Below, piece by piece: positions 3,761 to 21,300 of a stretch of 64,000 bases of DNA (positions within the stretch are counted from its first letter, which is position 1; each line of letters begins with the position of its first letter). The stretch is from assembly GCF_009914755.1 (NCBI RefSeq), contig NC_060930.1; one strand, written 5' to 3'. Origin of the DNA: the human T2T-CHM13v2.0 reference genome, Homo sapiens. The position numbers and the translations under genes are program-made. The notes under the pieces were generated by a model. It had not been told where the DNA came from and did not search any database. It saw only the letters and a program-made list of their open reading frames with translations.

Positions 3761-6321
3761 ATGGCTGTGTGGGAGCAAGGGGGTTTCTTAGCCACTGGAG
3801 CGTCCCATTGGGATGGGGCACTGGTGGTGACCCCTAAGCAGGGATGTGCCCTAATGGACTTGCATCTGATAGGGTCTCCAGGCCACTATGGCCCCATGCC
3901 TGGGTGAGGTTAAGAGTTAAAGAGTAGAAAACAGGAGGCCAGTGAGGGGGCATTTTTGGGCCCATGGGAAGGTTTCTGAGGAGATGGAAGGGCTGCAGGT
4001 ATAGGTTCCCAATATGTCCCCACCCCAGTTCAATTTCAATGACCAAGGGAGATAGCAGAGGTAAAGAAAACAGATAAGAGGGGGTCACCTGACACCTGGT
4101 GGACAGAAGCTGACATCCAAGAGGTGATTCCACCCACCTCCCTCCTGAGCTTCCTCCTTCCTCAGGTCCAGTTAAGCAGGGGACCTGGTCAGTGGTGCCT
4201 AGTCACCTGCCACTGTGTGACCTCAGACAGGAGATTTGTCCTGGGAGCCTCCTTCCCTCCATCTATAAAAGGGGAATGGACACAGCAGCCCAGAAGGCTT
4301 CGAGGAGGAGGAGGACGTGAGAAGGTGTGCTGAATCCTGCCCTGCTGAGCATGTAGGCCTAAAATTTTACACACAAACTGAGTCCCTATGAGGAAAGGGC
4401 AAGCCCTCTGCCCTCTGCCCTTCCTATGTCTGCATATCCAGAACTGCCTCAGGTGGAGAGGGCAGAGACTAGGGAGCACCCATAGATGCTCTGATGCTGG
4501 CCACAGCCCTTGGGGGTGACAGTGATGAGGACCTGGGTGCACATGTGGTGGAGCAGCCAAGACCAGCCAGAGAAGAGACACACTCATGCACACACGTGTT
4601 CACAACATACACATTCACACTCACACACAAACACATTGAATGCATGCGTGTTGACAGTTCAAGGAGTAGAGGACACTGGACCTGGGCCCTGCTGACCCAG
4701 GCAGGGCCCCACTCTGATGGGTGCTGTAACCCCAGACGTCACTGTTGCTGAACATCTGCCTGCCTCTGAGTTGTGGAGCAGCTGGAGACACACAGTGGTG
4801 TCTGTGAGTGTCTCTGTGTGCAGGACCCTTTTCTAAGTGAGAGGCACATCTCAGCACAGCTGACTGATCATTCTCGGGTAAGTGTGACCTGCTGTCTCCC
4901 CTTCCTGCTGACATGGGGGCAGATGCTACCAGATGGCATCACTGGCCTCCAGGGCGCTGTGGAGGGTAATGTCGCTGAGCTCCCACCAGGTGCTTTCTCT
5001 TCACTGACCATGTATTGCAGCCGTCTCATTCACCCTCACACTGACTTCGTGGAATGGGTGCTAATGTACCCATTTGAAGATGAGATGCCTGAGGTCAGAG
5101 GGGAGGCAACTGACCCAGGGACCCAGATGTGACTCTGGACTGTGATCTCAGCCCTGCCTTGTGCTGTCCTGCACTCAACTCCTGGCCTTTGCAGCCTTCC
5201 TGCCTTAGATACAAAATCTGCTGAGGATTCTGGACCCCAGTGGGGGTAGAACCTGGCTCTGGAAGAGCCACAGGAATGGGGGGCCCTGTGGGTGGGGTTA
5301 GAGGCATCCCTCAGTCCAAGTCTGTGCAAGAAAAAGTTCCCCAGAGGCAGGGATCTTATCCATTCAGACTTTAAGTGTGGGCTCTGATGGTTACTGTGGG
5401 ACCCACCAGGCACTGGAGTTTTCCAGTTTGGGAGCAGAGCTGGGAGCCCTCTGGCCTCGAATAGTTGTGGAAAATGAAGAAACCCTGGAGGTCTGGCCGA
5501 AAGGTGACAGTCATTCCTCCTGTTCTCTGAGGCCTGGGGACAGGGGTTTAACCTGCAAGGCCCTCTCTCTGACCTGTCCTCCAGACGTATCACCTTCCCT
5601 TTGTCTCAGGTATTCCCAGGAGAGATGGCCCCTCTGGGTGTTCTCCAGAACCTGTCCCCAAGAGTTCACTTGTTCTTTGGTGACCTGGGAAAACAAAGCC
5701 TCTTCCTGTATCAACTGCTCAGGACTGTGGAATCTGCCCTCCCTCCACCAAAGGGAGGCTGCTTTGGAGACAATAGATCAAGCCTTCTCCGAATCAAACA
5801 TCCTCCTTCTTGACTGGTGTTATTCTTCAAATGGATTCACTGGCCACAGTGAGTAAAGATTTGAGTGGAACAGAACACTCATGAGATTTCTTCTTTCCTA
5901 TAGAAAACTGGGCATCTTCATGGTGTCTGAACAATAGCAGGAGGCTGATCATATAGAGATTTCTGGTTCCTGGCCCTAGTCTGCCTCCAGGTGTCCATTA
6001 TAGTCATCATGGCCCTTCACCCTGAGCAGGTAGATGCCGTTCATCCTGCTGTGGAGTGTGTGCCCATTTCAGGACATTTAGGGACAACAAGTCTTGTTGT
6101 CTAGGTCTCCTTGTTTTAAAGTCCTCAGGAAAGGGCCCACCTCTGGTCAGGCCCAGGGACTCCAGAAATCCTGGCAGAGGTGGGGCCATTTGGCTTGGTC
6201 CCATTGTCCTGGGGGTGTTGGTGAAATGAAGTTCACCCGGCTGGCATCTGGGAGCAGATGTATGGGGTGTTCTCTAAAGCTCTCAGGTGCCATGTAATTT
6301 TGGGAGTATTTTGTCTTATAG

Positions 6322-6394
6322 GGTGGATATGGACAAAGACATGGATATCCTGCTCGCCCAGGAGTAAAGGGACATCATTGCCAAGTATAAGCAG
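6322..6394 (+). pseudogene. TBC pseudogene first coding exon remnant
   Basis: tag|G GTG GAT ATG... = (V)DMDKDMDILLAQE*RDIIAKYKQ versus TBC1D3 [24 protein letters not shown]; start codon is GTG, TAA at 6365-6367, donor lost (ACACAG). Confidence 0.85.
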
Positions 6395-6565
6395 ACACAG
6401 GTCAGGCTGCTCCCTCCAGGGAGGCGGGTCTCACCTCTCCCTCTGTTCCCTGGTCTGATGGTCCTGGACTCCTTCGGGATGCAGGGCAAGGATGAGCTGC
6501 CCACACGCCCATACCCAACAACTTTTATTTTGGCCTCCCTCACCCTCTCTCCCTCTGCCTTGCAG

Positions 6566-6647
6566 GTTGCTGATCCAGGGCACCAGTGGACACAGGAGAT
6601 GAAGATGTTTACATCTACAAGGTCATCAGTCAGCTTGAGATTCCACA
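6566..6647 (+). pseudogene. TBC pseudogene exon remnant
   Basis: Polypyrimidine tract-cag acceptor; APVDTGDEDVYIYKVISQLEIP resembles USP6NL EDADYLVYKVTDRFGFLH; GTGAGT donor at 6648. Confidence 0.75.
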
Positions 6648-6675
6648 GTGAGTCAGTCTTCTGTCCTCCCAACCA

Positions 6676-6987
6676 ATTGCCAAGACCAGCTCGGTCGTGG
6701 AGACCCTAACCCAGTGGCGCTAGAGGAATTAAAGACACAGACACAGAAATAGAGTGTAGAGTGGGAATCAGGGGCTGATAGCCTTCAGAGCTGAGAGCCA
6801 TGAATGGAGTTAGACCCACATATTAATTGACAGTAAGCCAGTGATAAGCATTGCTTCTATAGATTATATATTAGCTAAAAGCATTCCTTATGGGAAACAA
6901 AGCATTCTTAGCGAGGAGCAGAGAAACAGGCCCTGGCTGATATCTGCAGCAAAAGCATGTTGTTAAGGCAAAAAAGCATGTTGTTAA
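6676..6987 (-). mobile_element. Truncated ERV LTR (MER9-like)
   Basis: GGAGACCCTAACCCAGTGGCGCTAGAGGAATTAAAGACAC matches my recall of the reverse MER9 consensus. Confidence 0.7.
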
Positions 6988-7074
6988 GGAATCCCCCTGC
7001 AGATGTGGAGTCAGGCATGGTCACTCCTGCTGGACGTTAAGAAGGTGAAGGCTGAAAACCCAAGTAAGTACCAG
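6988..7074 (+). pseudogene. TBC pseudogene exon remnant (TBC motif A)
   Basis: GIPLQMWSQAWSLLLDVKKVKAENPSKYQ|gtatgg versus TBC1D3 [29 protein letters not shown]; 5' end missing. Confidence 0.9.
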
Positions 7075-7603
7075 GTATGGTCCTTCCACACTCAGCCACA
7101 GCGGAAGAAACAGGCCAGGCCATGTCAGGAGCCCAGGTCTCTAGCTAGAGGAAAAGTCAAGCCTGAGTGATGGTCAGTCCCATATCCTAGGCACAGACGA
7201 TGGCATGGGAACCACAAGTGAACTGGGCTCTGGTGACCCTCAGTGGCTTTGGAAATAAGATAGAGAAGGATATTTCTGCAAAAAAAAAAAAAAAAAATCG
7301 TCTTTCCTTCCAGAAGTGCTGAATGATTGCTGTTTGTGGTAGTGAGCCTTTTGTCTGTTATAAGGCTGGTTCCTTCCTGAGGAACCAGCCCTTTAGCCCT
7401 GCCCTAAAGAAAATAAAGGAGCAGGGCTCCTATACAGGGCTCTCACTGTAAAGCAACTGCGGGAGAGTGAGCCCCAGGGAAGGACCAGCCCCATCCTCAT
7501 CCACCACAGGTTATCAGTCCAGGTGGCCACTTAGGGAAGGGAAGAGGGTCTTTCTATGGGCTCACACTCAGGAGGGCCTAGGATTTGGGAGCAGAGGGAG
7601 CAG

Positions 7604-7713
7604 AAAATAAAGCAGCAGGGCAAGATGTCCTCAGCGAAAATAAACCAGATTGACCTGGACATGAAGTGCACCTTCAGACACCATGTCATGTTTTGGGAGC
7701 ACTACAGAGTCAG
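7604..7713 (+). pseudogene. TBC pseudogene exon remnant (Arg-finger exon)
   Basis: cag|KIKQQGKMSSAKINQIDLDMKCTFRHHVMFWEHYRV|gtaagg versus TBC1D3 [37 protein letters not shown]. Confidence 0.9.
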
Positions 7714-10109
7714 GTAAGGCCTATGGGGGATGGAGGGTCCCAGGGGAGACGGAGGAATTCAGAGGAATAGGGGCATCCCATGCAGGAGTCCAAGATAGGA
7801 CGTGACAGAGCCCCCCAAGGGCTCTCTTGGCCAGGGAGCAGCCAGCATCACAGAGCATCTACTGAGCTCCAAACCATGGGCCGAGCTGGGGCATGTGGGT
7901 CCAGAACCCAAGTGGCTACTGAGGAAACAAGCGGTAGCAAACACAATCATGCTGCATGGTGAAAAGTTCTCTCTATGACCCACAAGTACCTGAGGTAGAG
8001 ACCCACAAGAGGGGCTCAGACTTCACAGGCAACACTGACAACACCAAACACCATAGAGGATGTGGAGCCACAAGAACTCTGTGCATTGCTGCTGCAAAAT
8101 GCTGCTGCTGCTGAATGCAAAATGGTACAGCCGCCTTGGAAGACAGTTGGGAATTGCTCACAAAGCTAAATGTACTTGTACCACGTGACCACAAGTGTCA
8201 TAGACGTTGACCTAGCTGACTTGAAAATGTATGTACACCTAAAACCTACATGTCACATTCACTGCCTTATTCATTATCACTAAAACCTAGAAGCTACTGA
8301 GATGACCTTCAACACAGGTCCCAGGGGAGATGGAGGAATTCAGGGGAATGGGCGCATCCCATGAAATGAGGTTATACCTGTTTGGTATAATAAAATTACA
8401 GGTTAAATCTATAAATATAAATTATAATTATAGATTATTAGGTTACATTTATTTGGTATAATAAAATTATACAGTAGGTATTGTCAAATATGAAATTAAT
8501 ATCTAATGATTGTATTATACCAAATAAGGCAAATATGTGTCTTTTGGACTTAAGGGGACCTAATATCAAAAAAATTAATGAGTCAAAAGGACTGAATTTA
8601 GAATTTAATTTTGAAAAAATCAAATATCAAAACTTTAAAACACCTGCTATCACAAAATAGGATCATTGGTCATTGGTCATTGTAAAATAAGTCATTCATT
8701 TAACCAAAGTGATAACTCAAAGATTTCAAAAAAAAAAAAGTCAAAAGACAAAACCATTACTCTTTGAGAGAGGAGACTTAATTTTCCAAACAATAAGCCC
8801 TAATAAAGATAGCATGAGGCCAATGAAATCTGTTTCTCAAATCTTATAAACAAATCTATTAAATTTTAATGATCTTCACCATACTATATAATTTCCAAAA
8901 ACCTTTTTGTAACATTTTATAATTTTTTAAATGAAAAAGTGGGTTAATACTCCAAGAAAACCTTGTTAATCTGACACAGGAGCTCAGAGGTTAGTCTTGC
9001 ATCAGTGAGCCTTTGATACTAATCTTTACAGAGAAACTGTAACCAAGATAAAACCAATTTTATCTTTCAAAATAGGCTCTTACAATCGCATGTACCCACA
9101 TCTTCCACAATAGCCCCTGGACTTTGAGGGGTAAGATAGTTTCAATTTCTGGCCCTGTGTTTCATGAGTGCAGTTTCTTTTGATTATCATCTTCTCCTGG
9201 TTCTGAAGATACGGTTTTAGAAGCTTTCAGTGTTTAAGATTTAGCAGGACTTGGTGTCCTTTTTAGATACAGGAGTCAAAGCCCTGTAACTCAACAGAAC
9301 AAGGACTTTAAAAGCAATACAGAACATTGTATGGATGTTAATAACTTTAATTTTTTAAATCTCAGTTTTCCTAGGCAAATAAAAAACTTAATGACATAGG
9401 AATTGTTTCAATAAAATATAAAATCTGTTTGTTAGGCCAGTTACCAAAAGGCAAAAAATAAATAAAAGACCTGCAGCAATTGCTTTTCCCTAGACTTCAA
9501 GTCAAAACTAATGAAAATGGTACTTGAATTAGTTAGATATAGGAAGGGTGTGTCTTGCATCATAAGTGAAAATTTTCAGTTTCATAGAAAAACTTCAAAC
9601 CAAGAGCACAGAATGTTATATTGGAAGAAAATATTTCCTTTAGACCTTTAAGATAAAACACTTTTAGCATCATGTCACAGTAGCAGTTAGAACCTGAGGA
9701 AAAAAAATTATAGAAACTGACAAGAAAGTTGGAGAGAGCGATTATCTCAGGACTTATGAAGGGGAGAGAAAGGTGAAAACAGTGAGATTCAATAAAAGTT
9801 GAAATCTGGGGTAAAAAAATTAAAATATCTTGTAATTTGTTAAGAGTAAATTAATATCTTAAGAAAATTTTGTTCTTCTAGCCCATTCTTGAGTGGATTA
9901 GCATATTTTTAATATACACTAAGTGCAAAAGCACAGTCTCTAGAAAGACTAATTTCCTTTTAATTATAGCCAACTTGATCAAATAAATTCTTTTCTCATA
10001 AAGTCTCTTTTTACAAACCTTACTATGACTTACACAAGCCACTTATGACATGCCTAGACTTCCTGTTTTATCCTAAACAGCTTCTTTCCTAAATAACCAA
10101 TCATTTTAT

Positions 10110-10445
10110 CTTCTTTTTCTTTTTTTTAAGATTTCTTTGTTGTTGCTGCTGTTGTTGCTGCTGTTGTTTCCTTGAGACAAGGTCTCTCTCTCTGTGTCAC
10201 CCAGGCTGGGGTGTAGTGGCATGATCACAGCTCACTGCAGCCTTGACCCACCCAGGCTCAAGCAATCCTCCCATTTCAACCTCCCAGGTAGCTGGGACTA
10301 TAGATGTGCACCAGCATACTCAGTTAATTTTCTGTGTTTTTTGTATAGACAGGGTTTTACCATGTTGCCCAGGCTGGTCTGGAACTCCCAGGCTCAAGCA
10401 ATCTGCTCACCTCAGCCTTACAAAGTGCTAGGATTACATGCATGA
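10110..10445 (-). mobile_element. AluJ-type element
   Basis: Diverged reverse Alu consensus with a T-rich/(GTT,GCT) tail. Confidence 0.85.
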
Positions 10446-12502
10446 GCTATTTGCATCCAGCCATTTTATTTTAGAACAAACATTTACCATGCAAGATTTT
10501 TTTCTCATATAAAATTTTCCTTTTAACCTTTCTTACCAAAAATATCTCTTTATATTTTTAACTGTCTTTATATCGCTCTTATTTAGTGGTTCCTTTTATC
10601 TTGTTTCATAACCTTTAAATAACCTTTGAATTCAACAAAAATTATTTTCCTTTAAATAAGAACATATTCTTAGCAAAATGTTTTTCTGTAATTTTTTTAA
10701 TTGTGAATGACCCAGACATTTAATAAATGCCTGTTATGTAATATAACTTTAGATTCTAAATTATATTATGCTTATTTACAAGCATTCCTTCCATTACATT
10801 TACCTAACTTATTTTTAATAGTTTACCTAGATTACTTATGAAAACTGTGATAATCAACATTTAAAGGTATTTTCCTGTTAATCATTTATATAGCCTGTGA
10901 ATTTCAGGTGTTTACCTAAGTAAGAAGCTTAAGGTTAAACAAATGAGTTTTTCGCCAATAACTCAGGATAAATGACTTATTTATCAAAAAAAATTACACA
11001 AGGATAATTATCTTTTGAGTTACATTTATAATTTTATAACCGTCATGCCAAATTTTGACACCTTATGTATATTAGCATTTAATCAAGCTGACTTTTAACC
11101 ACTGAGCTTTAAAAATCCTTTAAAATCTCATTGCTGTAACCGAGTACACCCATTTTCCTGAGACATCAATTATTATTTTTTTTCTTTCCTTTTCTTGTTC
11201 CTTCAGTTCCCCACTCCCTACTTAGGCTTTTAGGAATGCAAATATAGCCTTTTACCTCCCCATTACCGGACTCTCCCTACAGTGCAAGTTCATCTAACTA
11301 CACGCTCAAACTGGAAAGTCAACTTGAGAATTAACAGTTGATTTATAAACCAATCATGCCCACTGTGGAACTCTCACTCTTTAGGAGGTTGTCTCAAGAG
11401 ATAACAGCCTGCCCATGAAGGTGCCAGCAGTCACAAGCTGATTGCCCCGTAGATAAGGCACAAGAGCTAGCATGGACCCCCCGCCACCACCCTTGCTCAC
11501 TTCCTCCCCTGCTTTTTAAAAGTGAAGCCATATGGAGGACACCTGCATTTCTTCCCCTAAGCTAGTTTTGGAAATAAATTACTTTCTTTATACCAGACTT
11601 CACTTTTGTTAATTGGACTCTGCAAGCAACAAGCGACTAACCTGCATTTTGGTTACATTACCATGTTTTAGGTGGGACAAACTTCTAATATTTCAAATGT
11701 AACACAAATATCAAACCAGTAAAGACTTTATTTAGGAACCAAACCCAGGCTGCCATGGTGGAAAAAGGGCAGAACCTTAGCTACTGAACTACAGCATGGG
11801 GCAACCACTATTGCTATTTCAGTTTGGCTTGGCTAGCAAAGGGTTGTTTTGTTATGTAAATAAAGCCCTTCAGGTAATTGAAATCTTTCTTGCTTCGATG
11901 GCTGATTTTTCTTTTTTTTCTCTTTGTTTTTCCAGCTTCAGGAATTTAGCCAGTTCAGAGGTCTTGTTCCCCATAATTTAGAACTTTCCTTCAGGTTTGA
12001 CCAAGTCAACTAGAGTGGTCAAACCCAATGGAAAAAAGACTAAAACAACAAAAACAGAACCAAACAAATAAACAACAACAAAAAAGTAAAGCAAAACAAA
12101 TGATTGCACAATTTATAAGATTACTGAGCACTCTAATGGTAAGGAGGAATCAAGACCAGCTGGTAGTTAATCTTAACTTTCAGAGAATTTCCAAGACAAA
12201 CCCCATTTCAGCTACTTATGTAGGAATAAGGCCCAGGTTGAAGATTGCTCTCTATCATCCTAGAAGCAGGAAAAAAACTCAAAACTCATCTTCCCTGTTG
12301 GAAGCAAGCTGAAACTCTGGAAAGGAGTTGCCTGCTTTCCATTATCATGGATTCAGAAAAACTCATCTTTTTGGATGCAAGTAAAACTCTAGAAAAGGAG
12401 TTGAACAGCAAAATAAACCTTAGATCTCAACAACATTTTGAGAAATCAGGGATTCTCTGGAGATGATACCTCCCAGGCCTCAGCAAATCGTCCTGTTGGT
12501 TT

Positions 12503-13216
12503 TGTTACTGGCAGCAAATCCATATGGGTCTGCAGCAATCTCAATTCTTGCCTTCTCAGAAGAAAGAATTCGACTGAGGGGCATACGGCAGAGTGAAAGA
12601 TTGAGGCAAGTTTTAGAGCCAAGAGTGAAAATTTATTAAAAAGCTTTAGAGCAGAAACTGAAGAAAGTAAAGTCCACTTGAAAGAGGGCCGAGTGGGTGA
12701 CTTGAGAGATCAAGTTCATGGTTTGATCTTTGACTTGGGGTTTCATACATTGGCATGCCTCTTGGGGCGGGGGAGTGGTTTGCATCTCTTCTCCCTTGAT
12801 TTTTCCCTTGGGGTGGGCTGTCCACGTGCACAGTGGCCTGCCAGCACTTGGAAGGGGCAACATACACAATGTGTTTACCAAAATTGTACACATGCTCACT
12901 TAAGGCATTCTTCCCTTACCAGCCGAGTGTTCCTGGAGAAAGGTTATATACTGGTTCAACTCTGCCATTTTGCCTGTTAGTGCACATGCTTAAGTCCACT
13001 AGCCCACCTCCTGAGATCTTATTGGGAAGCTGCTGATTACCAACTTGAGGTGTTTCTATTGGGAGGCTGCCTTTCCCTGGCACCGGCTGCAGCCAATTAT
13101 TATTTTCAAGAGGCAGTTTAACAACCTCCTGACCACCATCTGATGGTTGCCTGACATTCCTGGGCGAGGGTCCCTCTCCTGACCTATTCATGTCTGACTA
13201 ATTACCTATTGTAACA
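12503..13216 (-). mobile_element. Solo LTR, MER50-like
   Basis: TGTTAC...GTAACA termini; 4-bp TSD GTTT on both sides; recalled MER50 motifs CCAGGAATGTCAGGCAACCATCAG and GCAGCTTCCCAATAAGATCTCAGGAG on the minus strand. Confidence 0.8.
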
Positions 13217-13240
13217 GTTTGAACAATAAAGATAGCTCAA

Positions 13241-13550
13241 GGCCAGACATGGTGGTTCATGCCTGTAATCCCCGCTCTTTGGGAGGCCTTGCAAGGCCAG
13301 AGGATTTCTTGAGCCCAGGAGTTCAAGACCAGCCTGGGCAACAAGGCAAAACCCTGTCTCTATGAAAATTACAAAAATTAGCCCGGTGTGGTGGCACAAG
13401 CCTGTAGTCCCAGCTACTCAGGAGGCTGAGGTGGAAGGATCACCTGAGCCCGGGAGGTGGAGGCTACAGTGAGCAGGGATCGTGCCACTGCACTTCAACC
13501 TGGGTGACAGAGTGAAACACTGTCTCAAAATTAAAACAGATAAAATAAAA
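13241..13550 (+). mobile_element. AluJ-type element
   Basis: GGCCAGACATGGTGG...GCCTGTAATCCC...A-rich tail. Confidence 0.9.
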
Positions 13551-13639
13551 ATATAGCTCATACTGGTACCATGCACAAGTAGATTTGTCAAAGGTCAGGG
13601 CCACCTTCACTCAGAGTCTCTTCCGTTGGTTGCCAACTT

Positions 13640-14059
13640 GTAAACGAAAAAGTATGTCAGATAGGTCTCAATCAGTTTAGAATTTTCATTTTGCCAAGGT
13701 TAAGGACGCACCCAGGAAACAGGTATATGTACCTTTCTCAAAGATGATTGTGAGGGCTTCAATATTTAAAGGTGAGAAGTGTGCTAGATGGGAAAGAGGG
13801 TGTGGTTATCCACATGTTGCAAGAGAAAAGGAGTAGGCAGGAAAACAGTCAATTATGGATTCATCTCACACTCAGTAATAGGCCCTTTACATAAGGTGAA
13901 CATAAGACTAGCTACTTGAGGAGCTATTTAACCTTCTATCTGTAGCTATCTGCTGAGGAACAAAAGGAAAGACAGTTTTTTGCATGACTCAGCTTTCAGC
14001 TTAATTTTTTCCATTTGGCATAGTGAATTGGAGTCCTGAGTTTTATTTTCCTTTCCCAC
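13640..14059 (-). mobile_element. MER4-family LTR (5' LTR of the ERV1 element)
   Basis: TGTAAAC..AAAAGTAT..AGGTCTCAATCA..TTTGCCAAGGTTAAGGAC and terminal TTTATTTTCCTTTC. Confidence 0.7.
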
Positions 14060-14699
14060 CTCAAACCCCACAAGCTTTGCGTTGTTGCAGATTGTCCCTC
14101 TCAGAATATTTTACAAGATGGTGAAGTGCCTAATGAACATTTCTTTTGTCATAAAGTGAGTTTGGATCCTGAAGAAGCCATCATCTTAATCAGGCTTTGG
14201 GATCAAAGTTCCCCTTCACCCGAACCCTGAACAGCACAGCAGACAGGGAAGGACTTACTGAGATGGCTGCTCCCACTCTCCAGCCCCCACTTTCCTGACC
14301 ATTCCTGGCAGGAAGAGCTGCTGAGCAGACTCCATGGGCTGCCCACACAGGGTCTGGACCTAGCTGTCTTCCTGTGCCCAGCAGCCTGTGAGCCATCCCA
14401 GTCCCCTATGTGCAGTGGTCAGCACCCACAAGCCAGCCTTCATAGGGATTCAGTTCATGGGTGTTGCCCTGAGCCTGGCACAGTGGCCTCCCCAGCTTAG
14501 CATCTGCAGTTCGGGTCAGGGTGTTCTTAACGGCCCTCACCTATGCCTTTTCTGGCCACACATGAGTTTGGATGAAGCAGGAGTCTCTTCCATAGCTCCT
14601 TTTCATCTGAGATGTCCATGACTGGCTCAAGTGAACCACAGTGTCAGGAGAGGGGCACGGAAGCTGCACCCTAAATTCCCCGGGACCTGTGGCAGGCCT

Positions 14700-15380
14700 T
14701 CCTGGTGACCTCTGCCTTCTCAGGTGACTTCTGCCCTCCTGGGTGACATTAGTTCTCCCCTCTCAAGTGATCTGTGCCCTCCTAGGTTACCTCAGCTCTC
14801 CCAGGTGACCTCTGCCTTTCCAGATGACTTCAGTCTTTTCAGGTGACCTCAGCCCTCCTAAGTGACATTAGTCCTCCCTGGTTATCTCTGCCCTCCCTGG
14901 TGAACTCAGGTCTTCCAGGGGACCTCTGCTTTCCCAGATGATCTCTGCCTTCTCAGGTGACATTAGTTCTCCTAGGGGATATTAACTCTCCCAAGTGACC
15001 TCTTCCCTTCCAAGTGACCTGTTTCCTCAGGTGACCTCAGCTCTGCCAGGGGACTTCTGCCTTTCCAGGTAACCTCTGCCCTCTTGGTGACATAGTGTGC
15101 TCAGGTGACATTAGCCCTCTCAGGTGACCTCAACCCTCCAAGGTGACGTCAGCCTTGGTGAAGTCTTTCCATGATGACTTTGGCTTTTGCCAGAGGTAGG
15201 CTACTGCGGGGGCATAAGCCATATCATGCCATGAGCCACTATCCTGCTCATGTTCCAGAATGAGGAGACATCTGGGTGCTGGCCCAGCTGCTGGCCAATG
15301 AGAGGCTTGCCAAGCATGGTACTCTCCAAGGTGACCTCTGCCCTCTCAGGTGACACAGTCCTCCCATGTGACATTAGCTC
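14700..15380 (+). repeat. Degenerate ~20-bp minisatellite (GGTGACCTCTGCCCTCCCA-like) on both sides of a TBC exon
   Basis: Recurrent GTGAC(C/T/A)T units through 14700-15180 and 15330-15380. Confidence 0.85.
15193..15318 (+). pseudogene. TBC pseudogene exon remnant (Gln-finger exon)
   Basis: EVGYCGGISHI..ATILLMFQNEE..WVLAQLLANERLAKH versus TBC1D3 [40 protein letters not shown]; contains indels. Confidence 0.9.
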
Positions 15381-16021
15381 ACAGTGGACAGCTACCCACG
15401 AGGCATCACACAGCCAGGACAGGGGACGGCCACACTGGCTGGGTAATTGTGACTTACAGACAAGGCACCTTCTGTCCCCTGCTCATTTTGAGCCTCCAGG
15501 GTATCCCCTGCTGAGAGTCCCACAGGAGCCTGTGACTGGCCAGGGACCCGACACCCCAAGTCAGATGCCTCTTGTCCCCATCAGCAAATGGGATCACAGC
15601 TGCCCTGTGACCACCTTCTGCATCCTGGTGTCACAACCTTCTGGCCCTGACCTTATGCAGGGGACTCTTACAACCCTGCTGGTCCTTCCACCTCCCAGCT
15701 GGCCACCCTCCCAACCACCCTCCCTGCCCATGGCTAGACCAAGCCCAGATGACAGCTTCTCTCTGTCCTGTGTCCCCTGCCCTGACCCCACATCCAGGAG
15801 AAGGCCACACACCCTCCAGCACCCCTGGTCACCCCACCAGCTCCCACCTGTCCTCACTGCTTCAAAGGCAGGCCTGCCCTTCTGGAGCCATGGCCCTGGA
15901 AGCCACTAAGCAGTGCCTCCAGCCAGGCCCCAGGGGCATTCCCACCCCTCCTCTCCTGGCCGAGACCACATGATGGGGTCACTGGATGGGACAGTGAAAG
16001 GCCTTGGGGTCTGGAAGCAAC

Positions 16022-16090
16022 CACCACTGCCCAACTGCCACTGCCCAACCGCTGCTGCCCAACTGCCACTGCCCAACTGCCACTGCCCAG
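16022..16090 (+). repeat. Short tandem repeat (CCACTGCCCAACTG)n, about 4-5 copies
   Basis: Directly visible 14-mer repeats. Confidence 0.85.
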
Positions 16091-16151
16091 CCTGATGGCT
16101 CCACATCTCAGGAGTAGGCTCTGATTCCTTGGGGCCCCAGGAGCCTCTCAG

Positions 16152-16246
16152 GAGTCTACATCCCAAGATGTTCTAACTTCCAGAGTCTCCAAGCCCATCA
16201 AGAGCAAGTTTTGCTAAAAGTGTTCTGAGAGCTTATGAAGCACATG
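16152..16246 (+). pseudogene. TBC pseudogene exon remnant
   Basis: cag|(G)VYIPRCSNFQSLQAHQEQVLLKVF*ELMKHM|gtgagt versus USP6NL [32 protein letters not shown]. Confidence 0.85.
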
Positions 16247-16610
16247 GTGAGTGGTCAGTCCCTCAGCTCTTCCCCAGAGGCCCTGGGTCCCATGGGGTTA
16301 GCAGGGACAGGGGAAGCCTGGGGCTGGTGAGAGGCCAACTTCCAGCCAGGGCTTGATCTGGTTTTCAATGGATTCAAAGTTTGGCCTCCTTTTCCTTACC
16401 TGGAGGGGACAGAGGCACTGGGACCAGGCCAAGCTCTGGCTGAGCCAGGGCTAGGGGAAGTACATCCACTGGGGGCCCATGCCATGGGGAGGTGTTGGGG
16501 CACAGCCACCACTGTTCTACCTCTTGGGGAAGGGTCTGCAGTGGGGTCTGGAATACAGAGGTTTTCACGGAAGCCCAGGGGACCCTGAACACTTCTATTC
16601 CTTCTATCAG

Positions 16611-16676
16611 GACAAGGAAGGGTTGTGCATCCGGCTTTCCACCTTAAACTGGTTTCTATGGTGCTTCATCGATGAG
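16611..16676 (+). pseudogene. TBC pseudogene exon remnant
   Basis: cag|DKEGLCIRLSTLNWFLWCFIDE; donor mutated to ATAAGG; TBC1D3 has [22 protein letters not shown]. Confidence 0.85.
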
Positions 16677-17158
16677 ATAAGGATGCATAGGAGACCCCAG
16701 GCCAGGTACCTCCTTTCCCCACAGTGCTCAGCTCCCCCAGCCCAGGGGTCTGGCTTCCCCAGGAGGACCCAGCTCACCCCCACCCCACAGGAGGCACAGG
16801 CAGGTCTCTGCAGGGCACACAAGCCAGGACCTGTATGATGGGAGCTTTACACACCAGACACCAGGGAATTCTGGGCAGACTGGGCCAAGACCCATCTTGG
16901 AAGAGCCAAAGGAGCCAGGGAAGCCACAAGCCCTCAGGAAGCCCCTTATTCTGGGAACCACATTTCTGCTGAGATGAGTCCATCCCCATGAAGAGCTGCC
17001 GGACCTTGTCTGACCCAGCCTTATGGAAGATTGGGTGGGTCTCTTCCCAAGCAGAGGGAGCCTCAGGAAGTCCAGACTGAGGCTACAGTGGGCCCTGCTC
17101 AAGCCACCAGCCCCGAGGTTGGAAAGGCCAGGTCCTCCCACACCTGCTGTTCCCACAG

Positions 17159-17258
17159 ACTTCCTTCATGCTCATCCTGTGGCTCTGGGATGTCTACCTA
17201 CTGGGAGGTGAGTGTGTGGTGACAACTATGGTATACATGGCCTTCACAGCCACAGAAT
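17159..17258 (+). pseudogene. TBC pseudogene exon remnant
   Basis: cag|TSFMLILWLWDVYLLGGECVVTTMVYMAF versus TBC1D3 [29 protein letters not shown]. Confidence 0.9.
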
Positions 17259-17678
17259 TAAGTCCCTGGGTGGCCAATGGTGCCCAGAAGGAGCATGCAG
17301 GACAGACCCTGGGACCTATAGCCAGGACAGATTCCTGGCTTCTGGTGTGTGATGACCTGAGAGCAGCATCCACACTGTCCAGATGGCTCTCTGCTCCAGC
17401 CTGGAGGTAGGGCCAGACCAGGCCTGGTGGGCTGGGCAGGGAGTGGACCCAGGTACCAAACCCACTCCTGACACAACCCAGATGAAAGGCAAGAGTGTGT
17501 TGAGCACTTCCCTGCCCAGGCCTTCCTCCAGCTGTGGTTTTCTGTGAACATCTGGACCCCTGGGGCAGCCACAGTAGGATCCAGCACCGCCCAGTGGTGG
17601 GTGCCTGGGGCAGGAACAAGGTGCAGACACTGACTCTCCCACAGACCCCTCCCAGCCTCATAGTCACCCTGTCCCTAG

Positions 17679-17830
17679 AACACCCCCTGAAGCTGTTCCT
17701 GTTTGGCTTGCAGGAGTTCCTTCAGGACACACTGTCCTAGGCCTGGGCCCTGGAGGAGGACATGGTGATGAGGCACCCTGAGGCCTCCATGGGGGAACTG
17801 AGAAGCATGCACTGTGACCTGCACACCCAG
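17679..17830 (+). pseudogene. TBC pseudogene exon remnant
   Basis: tag|..QEFLQDTLS*AWALEEDMVMRHPEASMGELRSMHCDL|gtgggc versus TBC1D3 [28 protein letters not shown]. Confidence 0.85.
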
Positions 17831-18741
17831 GTGGGCTTCAGCACCAAGTCTCCTCCTGTGTCACCCTGCGGGGCAGTAAATAGTGGGAAGTGCCCAGACC
17901 TCACCAGCCCTGCTCCCTGGGCCTTCCTCCAGCCCCTCCTCTCCCTCCTCCTCTAAGAAGCTTCTGAAACCAGGCTGCCTGAGCCTAGGGCAAAAGCTGA
18001 CCTTGGGTTTACTGGACATGCCTCAGAGACAATGAGACGTGAGCAAGACTCTTCCAAGCCCCTCCCCTGTACCCTCCTGCTCTCACTCCTGAAAGCCCCA
18101 GAAGGACACTGGAGGGGTCAGATCCATCTGTGCAAGCCCACAACCACACCTGTGAGTACCAGCAGCCCTGGAGAGCAGCAGGGGGCCTTCACTCCTGAGC
18201 ACCCCTCCAAGGGCCTAAAATCAGTGTCAGAGACCCTAAGAGAATCTAGGGAGAGGGCATAGGTGAAACCCTGGCCCAGAGCCAGAATTGATTGCTCAGC
18301 TGAGTGTGGGAACAGTCCAGCCCTGGCATGGAGATCCCCCAGAGGAGTGGAGGGTGTCTCATCCACTGTGGAGATAAGCCCCCATATTGCGTGGCAAAGG
18401 GGCTAGGTAACAGTTAAGGCCTCATCCATCTGAGCTCTGAATCAAGGCTAAAGCCCAGGCTAAGCAGCCCTGGGGCAAGAGTGTGAGGCAGGAAGACTGA
18501 GTCAGCCTGAACCCTGGGGGCTGTCCCTGGAGTGACTTGAGCTTCCCTGACAGCTTCCCCACTCTAGGCTGCACACACACCTCGCTCTGGGAGTAGCAGC
18601 CTGCAGGAGTGTCCTCAGCATTAGACCAGGGGGACCACACGGGGACCCTGAGGACTGCAGGGACCCAGGTCTGTGGGGTCCAGCCTGGCAAAAGCAAGAT
18701 GTTCTCAATGGAAAAGCTGACCAAATCTGCTTTCCTTTCAG

Positions 18742-20217
18742 CCAAACCTGAGCAAGCACCCCCACCACCCAGGCCTCTGCAGATATCCCCCAGCATTGAG
18801 ACCCTCCCCAAGGGGATGGGCTGCTTCTCCCTGGCCCACAGCCCAGCTCCAGCAGCCCATGGGTATAGCCCTCCTGAAACAGGAGCCTCATCCTCCCTCA
18901 CCCTCACCTGGCTATGCTGTACCCAAGGCCAAAGCCCAGAGGCATAAGGGAGCTTCTGCAGAGCCCAGGACAGCAGGCTGCTCTCTGGGGGCCCTGGGGA
19001 CTCAGAGTGTGGCCAGCCCATCCCCAGCTCAGGATAGACCACAGAGTGCTTGGTGATTCCTGCATTGGAACTCCCTCTCTAAGCTCCCCATGGACCTGGA
19101 CCTCAGAGGCCTGTGGTTTTCACAGTAGAGCTTGGAGCAGAGATGCTAGGCCCCTATCACTTCCATATGTGTCCTGGACACCTCTAAGATCATAGGACTG
19201 GCCTAGCCCCCAATACCAGACACTGCCCAGCCCCCTGATAGCCCAGAGGTAGGGCCAGAGACAACTCTCCTGCATGTGATGCCTACAGCTGATCACTCTT
19301 GGCAGACAGTGAACATCACGGCCCAGAAGGAGCCAGGGCAGCACTTGGCAAGCTGCCCCAAAGCCCCAGAGAGCTCCTTAGACATGGAAAGTCAATACTG
19401 ATGGGGAAGCTGGACACTTGGAGGCCACTGGAGGGAGGGGTGAGCATGGTGTCCCCACAGCCCAGGCCACCCAGCAGCATGCCCTGCATCCATGGTCCCA
19501 ACCTGTAGGGCAGAACCCCCCTCTCAACGCACAATTCCTAGACCCAGAGGGCCCTAGCCCAGACTCAACCTGAGCCCTGAAAGGGAAGGGGCACCAGGGG
19601 TGCCTTGGGGCCTCCAGCAGCAGCCAAGATACACAGGAGATGGAGCCCCCTGTGGCCCTGGCCAGAACTAGTATTTGGCTTAAGGCGGAGCAAGCCCCCT
19701 TGGAGCACTGCGTACATACCCGGGGCCTATGTGTGCCTGGCAAGGCCAAGCTGATGATGTTACCAAGCTCAAACTACCACTGGCCACCTTGGTGAGGGTG
19801 GGGCAGAAACACGTGGACCAGCCACCAACCTCATCCATTCAAGGAAGCAGAAATGGTCAGGCTCCTGCAGGATAAGTGGCCACCACCAGACCACCAATGG
19901 GGCAGAGTTCTGAGGCCCAAGCAGATGGCACTGGGGCCCTGCTTCCAGGGTCCACAATCTGCTCCAGGACACAAGACTGAAGAAAACTAAGCAAATGAGA
20001 GTCCAGGAGGCTGGATCCCTCATCTGCCATTCTTGGCAGTTGCATTTTGTGGTCAGAAAAAGTCAGGAAACTTGGCTCTACTCACTGCAGGAGGCTCCAA
20101 GGTGGGACCAGAGCTTCCAGCATAGATTCAACAATGCCTAAGAATGCCTCTTCTTGGGGAAAAGGACCCCTTCCTTGGCCTCAGAGCCCCCACTTATTTT
20201 GATTAAAGCACAATAAA
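18742..20217 (+). pseudogene. TBC pseudogene terminal exon remnant plus 3' UTR
   Basis: cag|(A)KPEQAPPPPRP...; LGTQSVASPSPAQDRPQSAW*FLHWNSLSKLPMDLDLRGLWF versus TBC1D3 [48 protein letters not shown] at 20212. Confidence 0.85.
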
Positions 20218-21300
20218 GTCTTTGTTGTTATGTCCTGCCTGTTTTTGAGTTGCCCAGAGCTCTCTGCAGGAAGCCCTGGACATACTGGGGTGGATGGGAA
20301 ATGAAGATGGCACAGCCCAGACCCTGACCAGCCTCTCACAGCCTCCCCATCCCAAAGGCCGCAGCAGGGCCAAGCACCAGAAAGGCCAAGGTTCCCACCC
20401 AACTGTGAGCCACACTGCACTGCAGCCTCCCACTCTCAGGCAGATGCCAGGGTTAAGACCCTCCAGTAATTTCCTGTAATTCAAACTGCACCTGATAGGG
20501 ACCCCCAGAGGGCTGGGAAGGGAGCAAAAGTTGGAGTTCCAGTGACATTGCTCATTCATGACAGTCTGTACAAAGCATCCCTGAGAGGGTCTGCTGTCAC
20601 CTGTGTCTACTGTCCCTGGGTGGCTGGTCTCCGGCAGCCCTCCCTTCCTTTCTTCCCTCCTTCCCTCCCCACATCCCTCCCTCCCTCTCTTCCTTCTTCT
20701 CTTGCTTCCCTCATCCTTTCCATCTCATCTCCTCTCAGCATCTGGCAATCCCAGGTCCTGAGCCTGTGCCAAGGCGGGACACAAAGGACACCACTGACAA
20801 CAAGCCAGGTGACTAGCGGGGTCGGGGAGCCTTGTGGAATCAGAGTGGATGGGGAGGGGCTCATCTGTGCAGCCCAGGACTGCTGCCCCGGGAACAGTCT
20901 AGAACAGTGCAGAAGTGTGTGTCCCTGTGTGTGCACATGTGCACGTGTATGTGTATGTGTGTGCGTGCCTGTGCACACCTGTTTACTCAGTTCTGCTCTA
21001 AGTCCATGTCCACGACCCCAGAAGATCCCAGGTATGTCCTCACTGACGTCTGCTGAAATCAAGCATGGCCCCTGCTGGTAGTTATTGCACTGTGTAATGC
21101 CATCGTCGGGACCTCAGAGCAATAGAAACCAGTGGACCCCTTTAGGCTTTTCTTTCCAATGGGACATAAAGAAGTTATATGGACAGAAGTTATATCCTGT
21201 TTTCTTTCCATTGATTCTTTTACCACCTTTCTCCTCTTACTGATTTTGAATGAAGGGGGTTTTTCATGAGGGTAAGGTAACTGGCAAGAAATGAAATAAC

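What the first reader, a model, noticed from the sequence alone, without database searches (positions are those of the whole stretch)
6322..20217. Hidden, nearly complete TBC1D3/USP6NL-family gene fossil in the extended MHC
Seen: ten exon remnants (6322-6394, 6566-6647, 6988-7074, 7604-7713, 15193-15318, 16152-16246, 16611-16676, 17159-17258, 17679-17830, 18742 onward) lie in correct order on +, mostly with AG/GT boundaries. They translate to TBC1D3-like peptides from the N-terminus to the Pro-rich C-terminus. Known: the TBC1D3/USP6/TBC1D26/28/29 paralogs are concentrated on chr17 and derive from USP6NL. Inference: this is an old, intron-containing duplicate outside chr17 that the ORF track misses entirely. 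I know no current gene symbol for it, but it may have been noted in older clone annotations as Tre-like.
Basis: partly seen in the sequence, partly recalled or inferred. Interest (0 to 1): 0.8.

Follow-up and report, generated by a model that had tools for sequence, protein, structure and literature searches.

The report
Fossil TBC1D3-like gene behind LINC01015
A long-dead, intron-containing copy of a TBC1D3-like RabGAP gene lies in the extended MHC, its back half survives as the non-coding RNA LINC01015, and it looks far older than the supposedly primate-only TBC1D3 family.

Summary
Window ~5511-20230 (+) aligns in order, introns included, with every TBC1D3-like locus I fetched from the same genome (10 of 10, 65-73% identity). 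It shares only Alu repeats with USP6NL.

Ten of the 13 TBC1D3 coding exons are recognisable, with the same order, near-identical sizes and the same intron phases. Exons D and G and nearly all of C are missing. The copy is dead: lost start codon, in-frame stops, frameshifts, and 5 of 18 splice dinucleotides mutated.

LINC01015 is its transcribed 3' half. Four of its six splice sites are ancestral coding splice sites. The skipped or shifted sites are exactly those that have mutated.

K2P distance to all paralogs is 0.36-0.42. A tree rooted on USP6NL places chr6 plus a chr7 relic as sister to all other copies. This root is favoured but not decisive. This argues that the TBC1D3-like lineage predates primates, contrary to the current "simian-exclusive" account (PMC11610581).

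It is not unique: at least 22 other relic loci lie outside chr17. I found no paper linking LINC01015 to TBC1D3. GENCODE could not be checked.

The parts
5511..6322 (+). Upstream homology with TBC1D3-like loci (5' flank / 5'UTR region of the ancestral gene)
   Evidence: window 5511-6486, 5566-6472 and 5576-6669 align in order with the chr19, chr17p, chr1 and TBC1D3 loci at 65-70% identity.
6323..6394 (+). Exon A remnant (first coding exon). Start codon is GTG, there is an in-frame TAA, and the donor GT has become AC.
6566..6647 (+). Exon B remnant, 82 nt vs 86 in TBC1D3. AG and GT are kept. There is a TGA in the homologous frame.
6677..6970 (.). Younger interspersed repeat (LTR-like). It sits where about 2.3 kb, including exons C, D and the first 21 nt of E, is missing.
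   Evidence: 40 of 40 non-self matches fall on this stretch at 81-92% identity. Six same-strand pairs lie 6.0-7.6 kb apart, as provirus LTRs do. Searches show the gap in homology.
6988..7074 (+). Exon E remnant (3' 87 of 108 nt). Open frame, donor GT kept.
7408..7427 (+). Duplicated first ~18-20 nt of exon F, attached to the authentic intron E-F.
   Evidence: window 7018-7427 aligns to TBC1D3 6260-6663. One search printed both copies (the other is at 7603-7622).
7441..7602 (-). Inverted fragment holding the 3' end of intron B-C plus the acceptor and about the first 5 nt of exon C. It is inserted 18 nt into exon F.
   Evidence: 98/138, 104/140 and 98/138 identical to three paralogs, minus strand. 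(E 0.015 for the exon C start).
7604..7713 (+). Exon F remnant, 110 nt, open frame. It carries the Arg-finger motif, with Cys in place of Arg.
8506..14029 (.). Intron F-H swollen by L1-like and Alu insertions. Exon G is not found.
   Evidence: 76 of 76 matches are repeats inside window 8449-14029..
14696..15154 (+). 19-bp minisatellite in the intron upstream of exon H, shared with paralog introns.
   Evidence: (matches to TBC1D3 8502-8569 and to other loci).
15193..15318 (+). Exon H remnant, 126 vs 121 nt. The acceptor AG has become CA. There are frameshifts and a TGA. The Gln-finger position is Gly. Donor kept.
16024..16089 (+). 14-bp tandem repeat (4.7 copies) spanning the annotated LINC01015 start (16068), inside ancestral intron H-I.
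   Evidence: hub annotation.
16152..16246 (+). Exon I remnant, 95 nt. Both splice sites are kept and there is one in-frame TGA. Its donor is the donor of LINC01015 exon 1.
16611..16676 (+). Exon J remnant, 66 nt, open frame. The acceptor is kept and is the acceptor of LINC01015 exon 2. The donor GT has become AT, and LINC01015 uses a new donor at 16705.
17159..17257 (+). Exon K remnant, 99 vs 100 nt, open frame. The donor GT has become TT. LINC01015 skips this exon.
17679..17830 (+). Exon L remnant, 152 vs 153 nt, with an in-frame TAG. LINC01015 uses an internal acceptor (17714) and the ancestral donor (17830).
18742..20230 (+). Last exon M remnant, the Pro-rich TBC1D3-type tail. The acceptor is kept. 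Every frame has at least 7 stops over 18742-19626. Homology to paralogs runs to 19626-20070. AATAAA lies at 20212. This stretch is the last exon of LINC01015.
   Evidence: hub annotation.

Best explanation
Window ~5511-20230 (+) is an unprocessed, intron-bearing pseudogene of the TBC1D3-like branch of the USP6NL-related TBC/RabGAP genes.

Shown:
- Ten of 13 coding exons survive in the ancestral order, with the ancestral intron positions and phases.
- The gene is disabled many times over: ATG changed to GTG; in-frame stops in exons A, B, H, I, L and M; frameshifts in B, H, K and L; 5 of 18 splice dinucleotides mutated.
- A complex rearrangement removed exon D and nearly all of exon C. It truncated exon E beside an LTR-like repeat and placed an inverted intron fragment inside exon F.
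- Exon G is lost in an intron swollen by L1 and Alu insertions.
- No protein can be made.
- The 3' half is still a transcription unit, LINC01015. It uses the ancestral donor of exon I, acceptor of exon J, donor of exon L and acceptor of exon M. It uses substitute sites, or skips an exon, exactly where the ancestral sites have mutated (J donor AT, K donor TT).

Inferred:
- The RNA starts at a new site inside ancestral intron H-I.
- It probably ends at the ancestral polyadenylation site.
- The copy separated from all other human TBC1D3-like copies very early, roughly at the placental radiation. With a chr7 relic it forms the earliest branch of the family.

From the literature, not tested here:
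- In adult testis LINC01015 exons give rise to sense-strand piRNAs. The present-day role, if there is one, is as a germline non-coding or piRNA-precursor transcript.
For: Homology including introns:
- 10 of 10 TBC1D3-like loci align in order with the relic. The USP6NL locus shares only Alu.
- A genome-wide DNA search gave 70 non-self pieces at 65-90% identity.

Exon model:
- Searches give the exon sizes and boundaries.
- The USP6NL exons found in L021-L024 have the same intron positions and phases. Exon sizes H 121, J 66, K 100 and L 153 are identical to TBC1D3.

Protein level:
- Exons E, F and K hit USP6NL 9ltp_A in order.
- Pfam RabGAP-TBC matches exon F weakly (E 0.032).
- The last exon has a TBC1D3-type tail.

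LINC01015:
- Its splice dinucleotides were verified at 16246, 16611, 16705, 17714, 17830 and 18742, and AATAAA at 20212.
- They were compared with the ancestral boundaries.

Age:
- K2P is 0.36-0.42 to every paralog over 1262-2435 aligned sites.
- Transversion-only distance is 0.115-0.152. For comparison it is 0.041 and 0.055 between TBC1D3 and its chr17q11 and chr1 relatives.
- Unique-sequence identity (65-67%) is lower than the identity between independent Alu copies in the same loci (68-81%).
- CpG observed/expected is 0.06 at 59% G+C.

Position in the family:
- The DNA tree separates {chr6, chr7} from the rest with 99.9/100 support.
- The exon tree rooted on USP6NL gives the rest 94.5/91 support.
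- Exon H of the relic ends like USP6NL (...GCATG), while 8 of 8 other copies share ...GCAGG/GCCGG.

piRNAs:
- PMC4094622, section 9 and the Fig. 3B legend.
Against: Root position:
- It is not settled. The AU test does not reject roots on the chr17p pair (p 0.135), the chr19 pair (p 0.076), or chr6 or chr7 alone (p 0.189). Only a root on the crown TBC1D3 group is rejected (p 0.03).
- USP6NL contributes only exons H, J, K and L. Its exon I was not found in the 40 kb fetched.

Age:
- It rests on distances plus substitution rates that I recall. No other species could be examined.
- PMC11610581 (passages read) reports no BLASTN-detectable TBC1D3 in a long-read mouse-lemur assembly. The authors read this as a simian origin.

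Other limits:
- Pfam does not reach its cut-off on any single exon: 14.3 vs 25.2 bits, and 5 of 6 pieces gave nothing.
- The transcription start, polyadenylation site and piRNA output come from the annotation and one paper, not from data I could inspect.
Confidence: 0.85

Rival explanations
1. A recent, primate-specific segmental duplication from the chr17 TBC1D3 clusters landed in the MHC and then decayed quickly.
For: The literature treats TBC1D3 as simian- or primate-specific and as spread by segmental duplication (PMC11610581, PMC6920530, bioRxiv 2026.01.14.699559; passages read).
Against: - K2P is 0.36-0.42 to every copy, against 0.07-0.17 within the crown group.
- Transversion-only distance is 3-4 times that between TBC1D3 and its chr17q11 or chr1 relatives.
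- The relic lies outside the crown group in both trees. A root inside the crown group is rejected.
- The paralogs differ more than independent Alu copies do.
Confidence: 0.03
2. It is an independent duplicate of USP6NL itself, unrelated to the TBC1D3 lineage.
For: In several exons the relic peptide is as close to USP6NL as to TBC1D3, or closer: exon E 46% vs 38%, exon K 50% vs 46%. Exon H ends like USP6NL.
Against: - Introns and flanks align with all 10 TBC1D3-like loci and not with USP6NL.
- The last exon is of the TBC1D3 type.
- The Gln-finger codon is already changed, as in every TBC1D3-like copy.
- The USP6NL-like residues are better read as retained ancestral states in an early branch.
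Confidence: 0.03
3. The locus still encodes a protein, for example a short TBC1D3-tail peptide from the LINC01015 transcript.
For: The spliced NR_037181.1 model holds ATG-started open frames of 127, 93 and 53 codons. The 53-codon frame runs through exon J in the ancestral frame.
Against: - In-frame stops, frameshifts or a lost splice dinucleotide are seen in 9 of the 10 surviving exons. Exon F is open with both dinucleotides but is interrupted by the inverted insertion.
- The 127-codon frame is mostly out of the ancestral frame in exon M.
- CpG decay and substitution levels look neutral.
- RefSeq calls it non-coding.
Confidence: 0.02
4. The similarity is chance or repeat-driven, and no gene was ever here.
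For: The first whole-region DNA searches returned only interspersed repeats.
Against: Repeat-free sub-searches gave E = 0 in-order matches, exon-by-exon boundary agreement, and in-order PDB hits to USP6NL.
Confidence: 0.005

Closest known systems
TBC1D3 (chr17q12 clusters; here the copy at G000:C17:38989001-39003000, loci L001+L002)
   Same: - Same exon order, with exon sizes A 72, F 110, I 95 and J 66 identical.
- Same intron positions and phases.
- Same type of Pro-rich last exon.
- Introns can be aligned.

   Different: - Only 65-69% DNA identity (K2P 0.42).
- TBC1D3 is intact (549-aa frame), whereas the relic is broken throughout and lacks exons C, D and G.
- The relic keeps several USP6NL-like residues that TBC1D3 has replaced.
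Old TBC1D3-like copies elsewhere in the genome: chr17p (C17:16.87 and 20.94 Mb), chr19 (16.15 and 19.88 Mb), chr7 (57.65 Mb), chr1 (15.43 and 245.9 Mb). I did not verify their gene symbols.
   Same: They are the same family with the same exon-intron layout. Most are also riddled with stops. The chr7 copy groups with the chr6 relic.
   Different: - Each is a separate old lineage, at K2P 0.36-0.41 from the relic.
- 7 of 9 keep exon C and 7 of 9 keep exon D; exon G was matched in 4 of 9.
- None lies in the MHC.
USP6NL (RN-tre), chr10; solved TBC domain 9ltp
   Same: It is the parent-type gene. It has the same intron positions and phases for exons D-L, and exon sizes H, J, K and L are identical. 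It is the best PDB match of relic exons E, F and K.
   Different: - No intron homology.
- USP6NL keeps both catalytic fingers (IDLDVNR, GYCQG), whereas the relic has IDLDMKC and GYCGG.
- I recall that the C-terminal region differs, but it was not fetched.
Transcribed unprocessed pseudogenes and pseudogene-derived lncRNAs, including piRNA-precursor lncRNAs
   Same: A dead gene's splice sites, and probably its polyadenylation site, are reused by a non-coding transcript. Testis piRNAs map to its exons (PMC4094622).
   Different: - The transcript starts inside an ancestral intron rather than at the old promoter.
- At 65% identity and in sense orientation, its piRNAs are unlikely to target living TBC1D3 mRNAs (inference).

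Membership tests
TBC1D3-like gene family | In-order DNA homology with TBC1D3 loci that includes introns | tested here: met
   10 of 10 loci, blocks of up to 4.5 kb at 65-67% identity..
TBC1D3-like gene family | Same coding exon order, sizes, intron positions and phases as TBC1D3 | tested here: met
   10 of 13 coding exons present, sizes within 0-5 nt (E truncated). Exon D, exon G and most of C are absent.
TBC1D3-like gene family | TBC1D3-type last exon (Pro-rich tail) rather than the USP6NL tail | tested here: met
   exon M aligns at 60% over 435 columns with TBC1D3 and in order with the chr1, chr7 and chr19 copies. The USP6NL last exon was not fetched, so the contrast is partly recalled.
TBC1D3-like gene family | Closer to TBC1D3-like copies than to USP6NL | tested here: met
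   Intron homology exists only with TBC1D3-like loci. The USP6NL branch is 0.63 in the exon tree. With a single outgroup the tree itself cannot test monophyly.
Functional (protein-coding) TBC1D3 family member | Intact open reading frame and splice sites | tested here: not met
   start codon is GTG; stops in A, B, H, I, L and M; 5 of 18 splice dinucleotides lost; three exons missing.
Catalytic TBC RabGAP (Pfam PF00566, dual-finger mechanism; the motif definitions are recalled) | Pfam RabGAP-TBC match above the gathering score | tested here: inconclusive
   only the exon F frame matched (14.3 bits, cut-off 25.2, E 0.032), and 5 of 6 pieces gave nothing. The exons could not be submitted joined.
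Catalytic TBC RabGAP (Pfam PF00566, dual-finger mechanism; the motif definitions are recalled) | Arginine finger in IxxDxxR | tested here: not met
   the relic has IDLDMKC (TGC where USP6NL has CGC). USP6NL has IDLDVNR. Some paralogs keep R, others have H, Q or G.
Catalytic TBC RabGAP (Pfam PF00566, dual-finger mechanism; the motif definitions are recalled) | Glutamine finger in YxQ | tested here: not met
   the relic has GYCGG and USP6NL has GYCQG. All 7 other TBC1D3-like copies that cover this codon have AGG (Arg) there, and the chr17 20.94 Mb copy lacks that part of the exon. The loss therefore looks family-wide.
Processed (retrotransposed) pseudogene | No introns; poly(A) tail; target-site duplications | tested here: not met
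   The introns are present and homologous to paralog introns.
Pseudogene-derived lncRNA | Annotated transcript exons coincide with ancestral exons and splice sites | tested here: met
   The hub annotation of NR_037181.1 was compared: 4 of 6 splice sites are ancestral, and the last exon is exon M.
piRNA-precursor lncRNA | Sense-strand, exon-enriched, 1U-biased small RNAs in testis | not testable with these tools
   Literature only: PMC4094622 section 9 and Fig. 3B legend. Its Table S5 was not opened.

The most novel reading that the evidence does not exclude
TBC1D3 is not a primate invention that raced away from USP6NL. It is the one surviving, re-amplified twig of an old mammalian family. That family had already lost its glutamine finger and had spread to several chromosomes around the time of the placental radiation. 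The MHC-linked relic behind LINC01015, together with a chr7 relic, is its earliest-branching remnant in the human genome. It preserves USP6NL-like ancestral states and marks a locus where non-primate mammals might still carry an orthologue.
Probability: 0.55. Interest if true: 0.65.

Novelty: new member of a known kind. Interest (0 to 1): 0.5.

Why it matters
TBC1D3 is a much-studied family, linked to cortical expansion, 17q12 rearrangements and extreme copy-number variation. Its origin is openly unresolved.
- PMC11610581 reports no ancestral paralog and calls the family simian-exclusive (passages).
- A 2026 preprint attributes the 34% identity to USP6NL to rapid change within primates (passages).

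Deeply diverged, intron-bearing relics on chr6, 7, 17p and 19 offer a simpler account: a long history. They also give concrete syntenic loci to examine in other mammals.

The finding also explains where an MHC lncRNA comes from. LINC01015 appears in association and biomarker lists and is a testis piRNA-precursor candidate. Its exon structure makes sense as an inheritance from a dead coding gene.

If GENCODE or older clone annotation already records the pseudogene, the locus-level novelty disappears. The evolutionary argument would remain.

Tried and rejected
- Large protein database search with the exon F frame, longer proteins allowed: 1 candidate, none scored. The database seems to lack mammalian proteins, so I spent no further searches there.
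- Pfam on single exon translations: 5 of 6 gave nothing and 1 was weak. Searches failed on a stop codon and on a 19-residue piece, and were corrected.
- Whole-region and 5'-region DNA searches of the genome were swamped by L1, Alu and LTR-like repeats. They were replaced by a repeat-poor sub-query and by local BLAST against fetched loci.
- PF00566 scan of the genome did not flag the relic at E <= 0.001. It did locate USP6NL and the paralogs.
- Exons C, D and G were sought with TBC1D3 queries and with queries from closer paralogs. No forward-strand, in-order match was found; only the inverted fragment turned up.
- USP6NL exon I was not found in the 40 kb fetched.
- Rfam: 0 families over window 5400-20400.
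- Frittoli 2008 (PMC2291429) and Paulding 2003 (PMC151371) are not held, and Hodzic 2006 was not seen. Any of them may mention old paralogs.
- The 2R/MHC-paralogon idea for the chr1, chr9 and chr19 copies is rejected. Intron-level identity of 65-70% is far too high for a duplication of that age.
- piRNA targeting of living TBC1D3 by the relic is rejected as unlikely, given sense orientation and 65% identity.

Full report
**1. What is there**

I read the ten claimed exon remnants directly. The exon F frame (window 7535-7717) has USP6NL (PDB 9ltp_A, residues 130-166) as its only PDB match, E 4.9e-4. The exon E frame matches residues 102-130 (E 0.11). The exon K frame matches residues 275-304 (E 0.14). 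So three independent queries, searched against 177,635 sequences, hit the same chain with the matched residues in order. Pfam gives only a sub-threshold RabGAP-TBC match for exon F (14.3 bits against a 25.2 cut-off), and 5 of 6 pieces gave nothing.

**2. Family and structure**

The window's own genome could be searched. A PF00566 scan located USP6NL on C10 and many TBC1D3-type exons on C17. A DNA search with window 16100-20250 returned 70 non-self pieces at 65-90% identity. Of these, 28 lie on chr17 and 42 lie on chr1, 2, 7, 9, 11, 13, 18, 19, 21 and 22. Only 40 of 161 candidates were scored, so these are lower bounds.

I fetched ten TBC1D3-like loci and 40 kb of USP6NL. Local blastn shows that the relic aligns in order with all ten TBC1D3-like loci from window ~5511 to 19626-20070, introns included, at 65-73% identity. 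With USP6NL it shares only Alu.

I rebuilt the intact TBC1D3 frame from L001+L002. It has 13 coding exons A-M of 72, 86, 40, 81, 108, 110, 49, 121, 95, 66, 100, 153 and 569 nt, giving 549 aa. The relic holds A, B, E (3' 87 nt), F, H, I, J, K, L and M, with matching boundaries and phases. The USP6NL exons found (D-H, J-L) have the same intron positions and phases. Its H, J, K and L exons are exactly the TBC1D3 sizes.

**3. How it died**

- The first codon is GTG.
- There are in-frame stops in A, B, H, I, L and M.
- There are length changes in B (-4), H (+5), K (-1) and L (-1).
- Five of 18 splice dinucleotides are lost: A donor AC, E acceptor (truncated exon), H acceptor CA, J donor AT, K donor TT.
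- Exons C, D and G are found in 7, 7 and 4 of 9 other paralogs. The window has no forward-strand, in-order counterpart.
- An LTR-like repeat at 6677-6970 sits exactly in the gap between intron B-C and exon E. All 40 non-self hits fall on it at 81-92% identity, and six same-strand pairs lie 6.0-7.6 kb apart.
- Window 7602 to 7441, read on the minus strand, is an inverted piece of intron B-C with the first ~5 nt of exon C. It is inserted 18 nt into exon F and is flanked by a 20-nt duplication of the exon F start.
- Intron F-H is swollen to 7.5 kb by L1-like and Alu sequence.
- The two catalytic-finger positions read IDLDMKC and GYCGG, against IDLDVNR and GYCQG in USP6NL. The motif definitions are recalled. 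Every other TBC1D3-like copy that covers the Gln-finger codon has Arg there (7 copies). The family therefore probably lost that finger before it dispersed (inference).

**4. LINC01015**

The hub's RefSeq table gives NR_037181.1 exons 16068-16246, 16611-16705, 17714-17830 and 18742-20230. I verified AG/GT at each junction and AATAAA at 20212.

- Four of the six splice sites are the ancestral exon I donor, exon J acceptor, exon L donor and exon M acceptor.
- The new donor at 16705 replaces the mutated J donor.
- Exon K, whose donor is dead, is skipped.
- An internal acceptor at 17714 is used in exon L.
- The start lies in ancestral intron H-I, inside a 14-bp tandem repeat.

So LINC01015 is the transcribed 3' half of this pseudogene. 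PMC4094622 shows LINC01015 as one of two example lncRNAs whose exons yield sense-strand piRNAs in adult human testis (section 9 read whole, Fig. 3B legend). No Rfam family matches.

**5. Age and position**

I aligned the span from exon H to exon L, introns included, with MAFFT (2942 columns).

| Comparison | K2P | Transversion-only |
|---|---|---|
| Relic vs every other copy | 0.36-0.42 (identity 0.69-0.72, n = 1262-2435) | 0.115-0.152 |
| TBC1D3 vs nearest chr17 copy | 0.07 | 0.025 |
| TBC1D3 vs chr17q11 copy | 0.12 | 0.041 |
| TBC1D3 vs chr1 copies | 0.16-0.17 | 0.055-0.057 |
| TBC1D3 vs chr17p pair | 0.33-0.35 | 0.132-0.133 |
| TBC1D3 vs chr19 copies | 0.38 | 0.142-0.146 |
| TBC1D3 vs chr7 copy | 0.45 | 0.172 |

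The paralogs differ more than independent Alu copies in the same loci do (68-81% identity). The relic's CpG observed/expected is 0.06 at 59% G+C, against 0.10-0.27 in the paralogs.

I recall a human-lineage neutral divergence of about 0.16-0.17 since the human-mouse ancestor. A per-lineage distance of about 0.18-0.21 then points to roughly the placental radiation. This is an inference, not a measurement.

- The DNA tree separates {chr6, chr7} from the rest with 99.9/100 support.
- The exon tree rooted on USP6NL puts (chr6, chr7), support 79.5/83, as sister to all others, support 94.5/91.
- The AU test favours that root (p 0.93; RELL 0.87 for a root on chr6 and/or chr7).
- It rejects a root on the crown TBC1D3 group (p 0.03).
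- It does not reject roots on the chr17p pair (p 0.135) or the chr19 pair (p 0.076).

**6. Literature**

- LINC01015 occurs in 17 papers (listing seen). None also holds 'TBC1D3' (0 papers).
- Co-occurrences of MAS1L with TBC1D3 or USP6NL occur only in 3 broad expression or proteomics papers, judged from titles; their texts were not opened.
- A search for an older 'tre' label in the extended class I region found nothing.
- PMC11610581 (passages): no TBC1D3 found by BLASTN in mouse lemur, 'exclusive to the simian infraorder', no consistent ancestral paralog, only chr17 copies considered.
- bioRxiv 10.64898/2026.01.14.699559 (passages): origin from USP6NL, 13 of 14 exons conserved, 34% identity attributed to rapid change in primates.
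- PMC6920530 (passages): the same origin.
- Frittoli 2008 and Paulding 2003 are not held, and Hodzic 2006 was not seen.
- GENCODE and HGNC could not be consulted.

**7. Verdict**

It needs four corrections: 10 of 13 exons; not unique outside chr17; the 3' half is already annotated as a lncRNA; and the copy belongs to the TBC1D3-like branch rather than to USP6NL proper.

In kind it is ordinary, a transcribed unprocessed pseudogene. Its depth in the family tree bears directly on the open question of where TBC1D3 came from.

Noticed in passing
window 6677-6970: A younger interspersed repeat. All 40 non-self genome hits fall on it at 81-92% identity. Six same-strand pairs lie 6.0-7.6 kb apart, as LTRs of endogenous retroviruses do. 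It fills the gap left by the loss of exons C and D. The family was not named because no repeat library was available.
   Followed up: partly
window 7408-7622: A templated-insertion-like scar. A 20-nt duplication of the exon F start brackets about 175 bp, which includes an inverted piece of intron B-C and the exon C acceptor.
   Followed up: yes
window 14400-20400: Extreme CpG depletion: observed/expected 0.02-0.11 at 53-61% G+C. This is lower than in any of the 10 paralogs (0.10-0.27). It may reflect long-term germline methylation of a testis-transcribed unit.
   Followed up: partly
window 16024-16089: A 14-bp tandem repeat (CCACTGCCCAACTG, 4.7 copies) spans the annotated LINC01015 transcription start at 16068.
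   Followed up: no
window 14696-15154: A 19-bp minisatellite (about 20 copies) lies just upstream of exon H. Matching repeats lie at the same intron position in TBC1D3 and other paralogs, so it predates the duplications.
   Followed up: partly
G000: C1:15431933-15435526, C1:245932404-245935950, C7:57655658-57658916, C7:56724012-56727253, C7:56771755-56772876, C7:65135162-65136233, C19:16156198-16159449, C19:16170552-16171782, C19:19884929-19888263, C11:576148-576969, C17:42181176-42184425: Other old TBC1D3-like relics lie outside the known chr17 clusters, at 64-73% identity to the chr6 relic. Whether they are annotated was not checked.
   Followed up: partly
G000: seven loci on C9 (38.59, 40.31, 42.99, 44.47, 77.85, 79.71, 105.06 Mb), C2:95294044, C21:12251258, C13:18003215, C18:14415251, C22:7615516: Twelve mostly pericentromeric loci match only window 19216-19950 (the 3' part of the last exon) at 69-71% identity. 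They look like a fragment of a relic's last exon spread by pericentromeric duplications.
   Followed up: no
G000: C14:13533944, C18:15153733, C22:16475830, C9:47830922, C21:5642524, C14:2850077, C13:9378968, C15:4738416, C22:5749927, C13:12745096, C14:6656658, C21:9758589: Single TBC-domain exon hits (PF00566 positions ~82-124, open frames of 82-98 codons) lie on acrocentric short arms and pericentromeres. Their relation to the TBC1D3-like family was not examined.
   Followed up: no
paralog exon F: At the Arg-finger codon, USP6NL has CGC. The relic has TGC (Cys). The chr7, chr19 (19.88 Mb) and chr17p (16.87 Mb) copies have His. Three of the nine copies compared differ: R is kept in the chr17 18.34 Mb and chr1 245.9 Mb copies, and the chr17q11 copy has Q. 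The Cys and His changes look like independent CpG decay of an ancestral Arg codon.
   Followed up: partly
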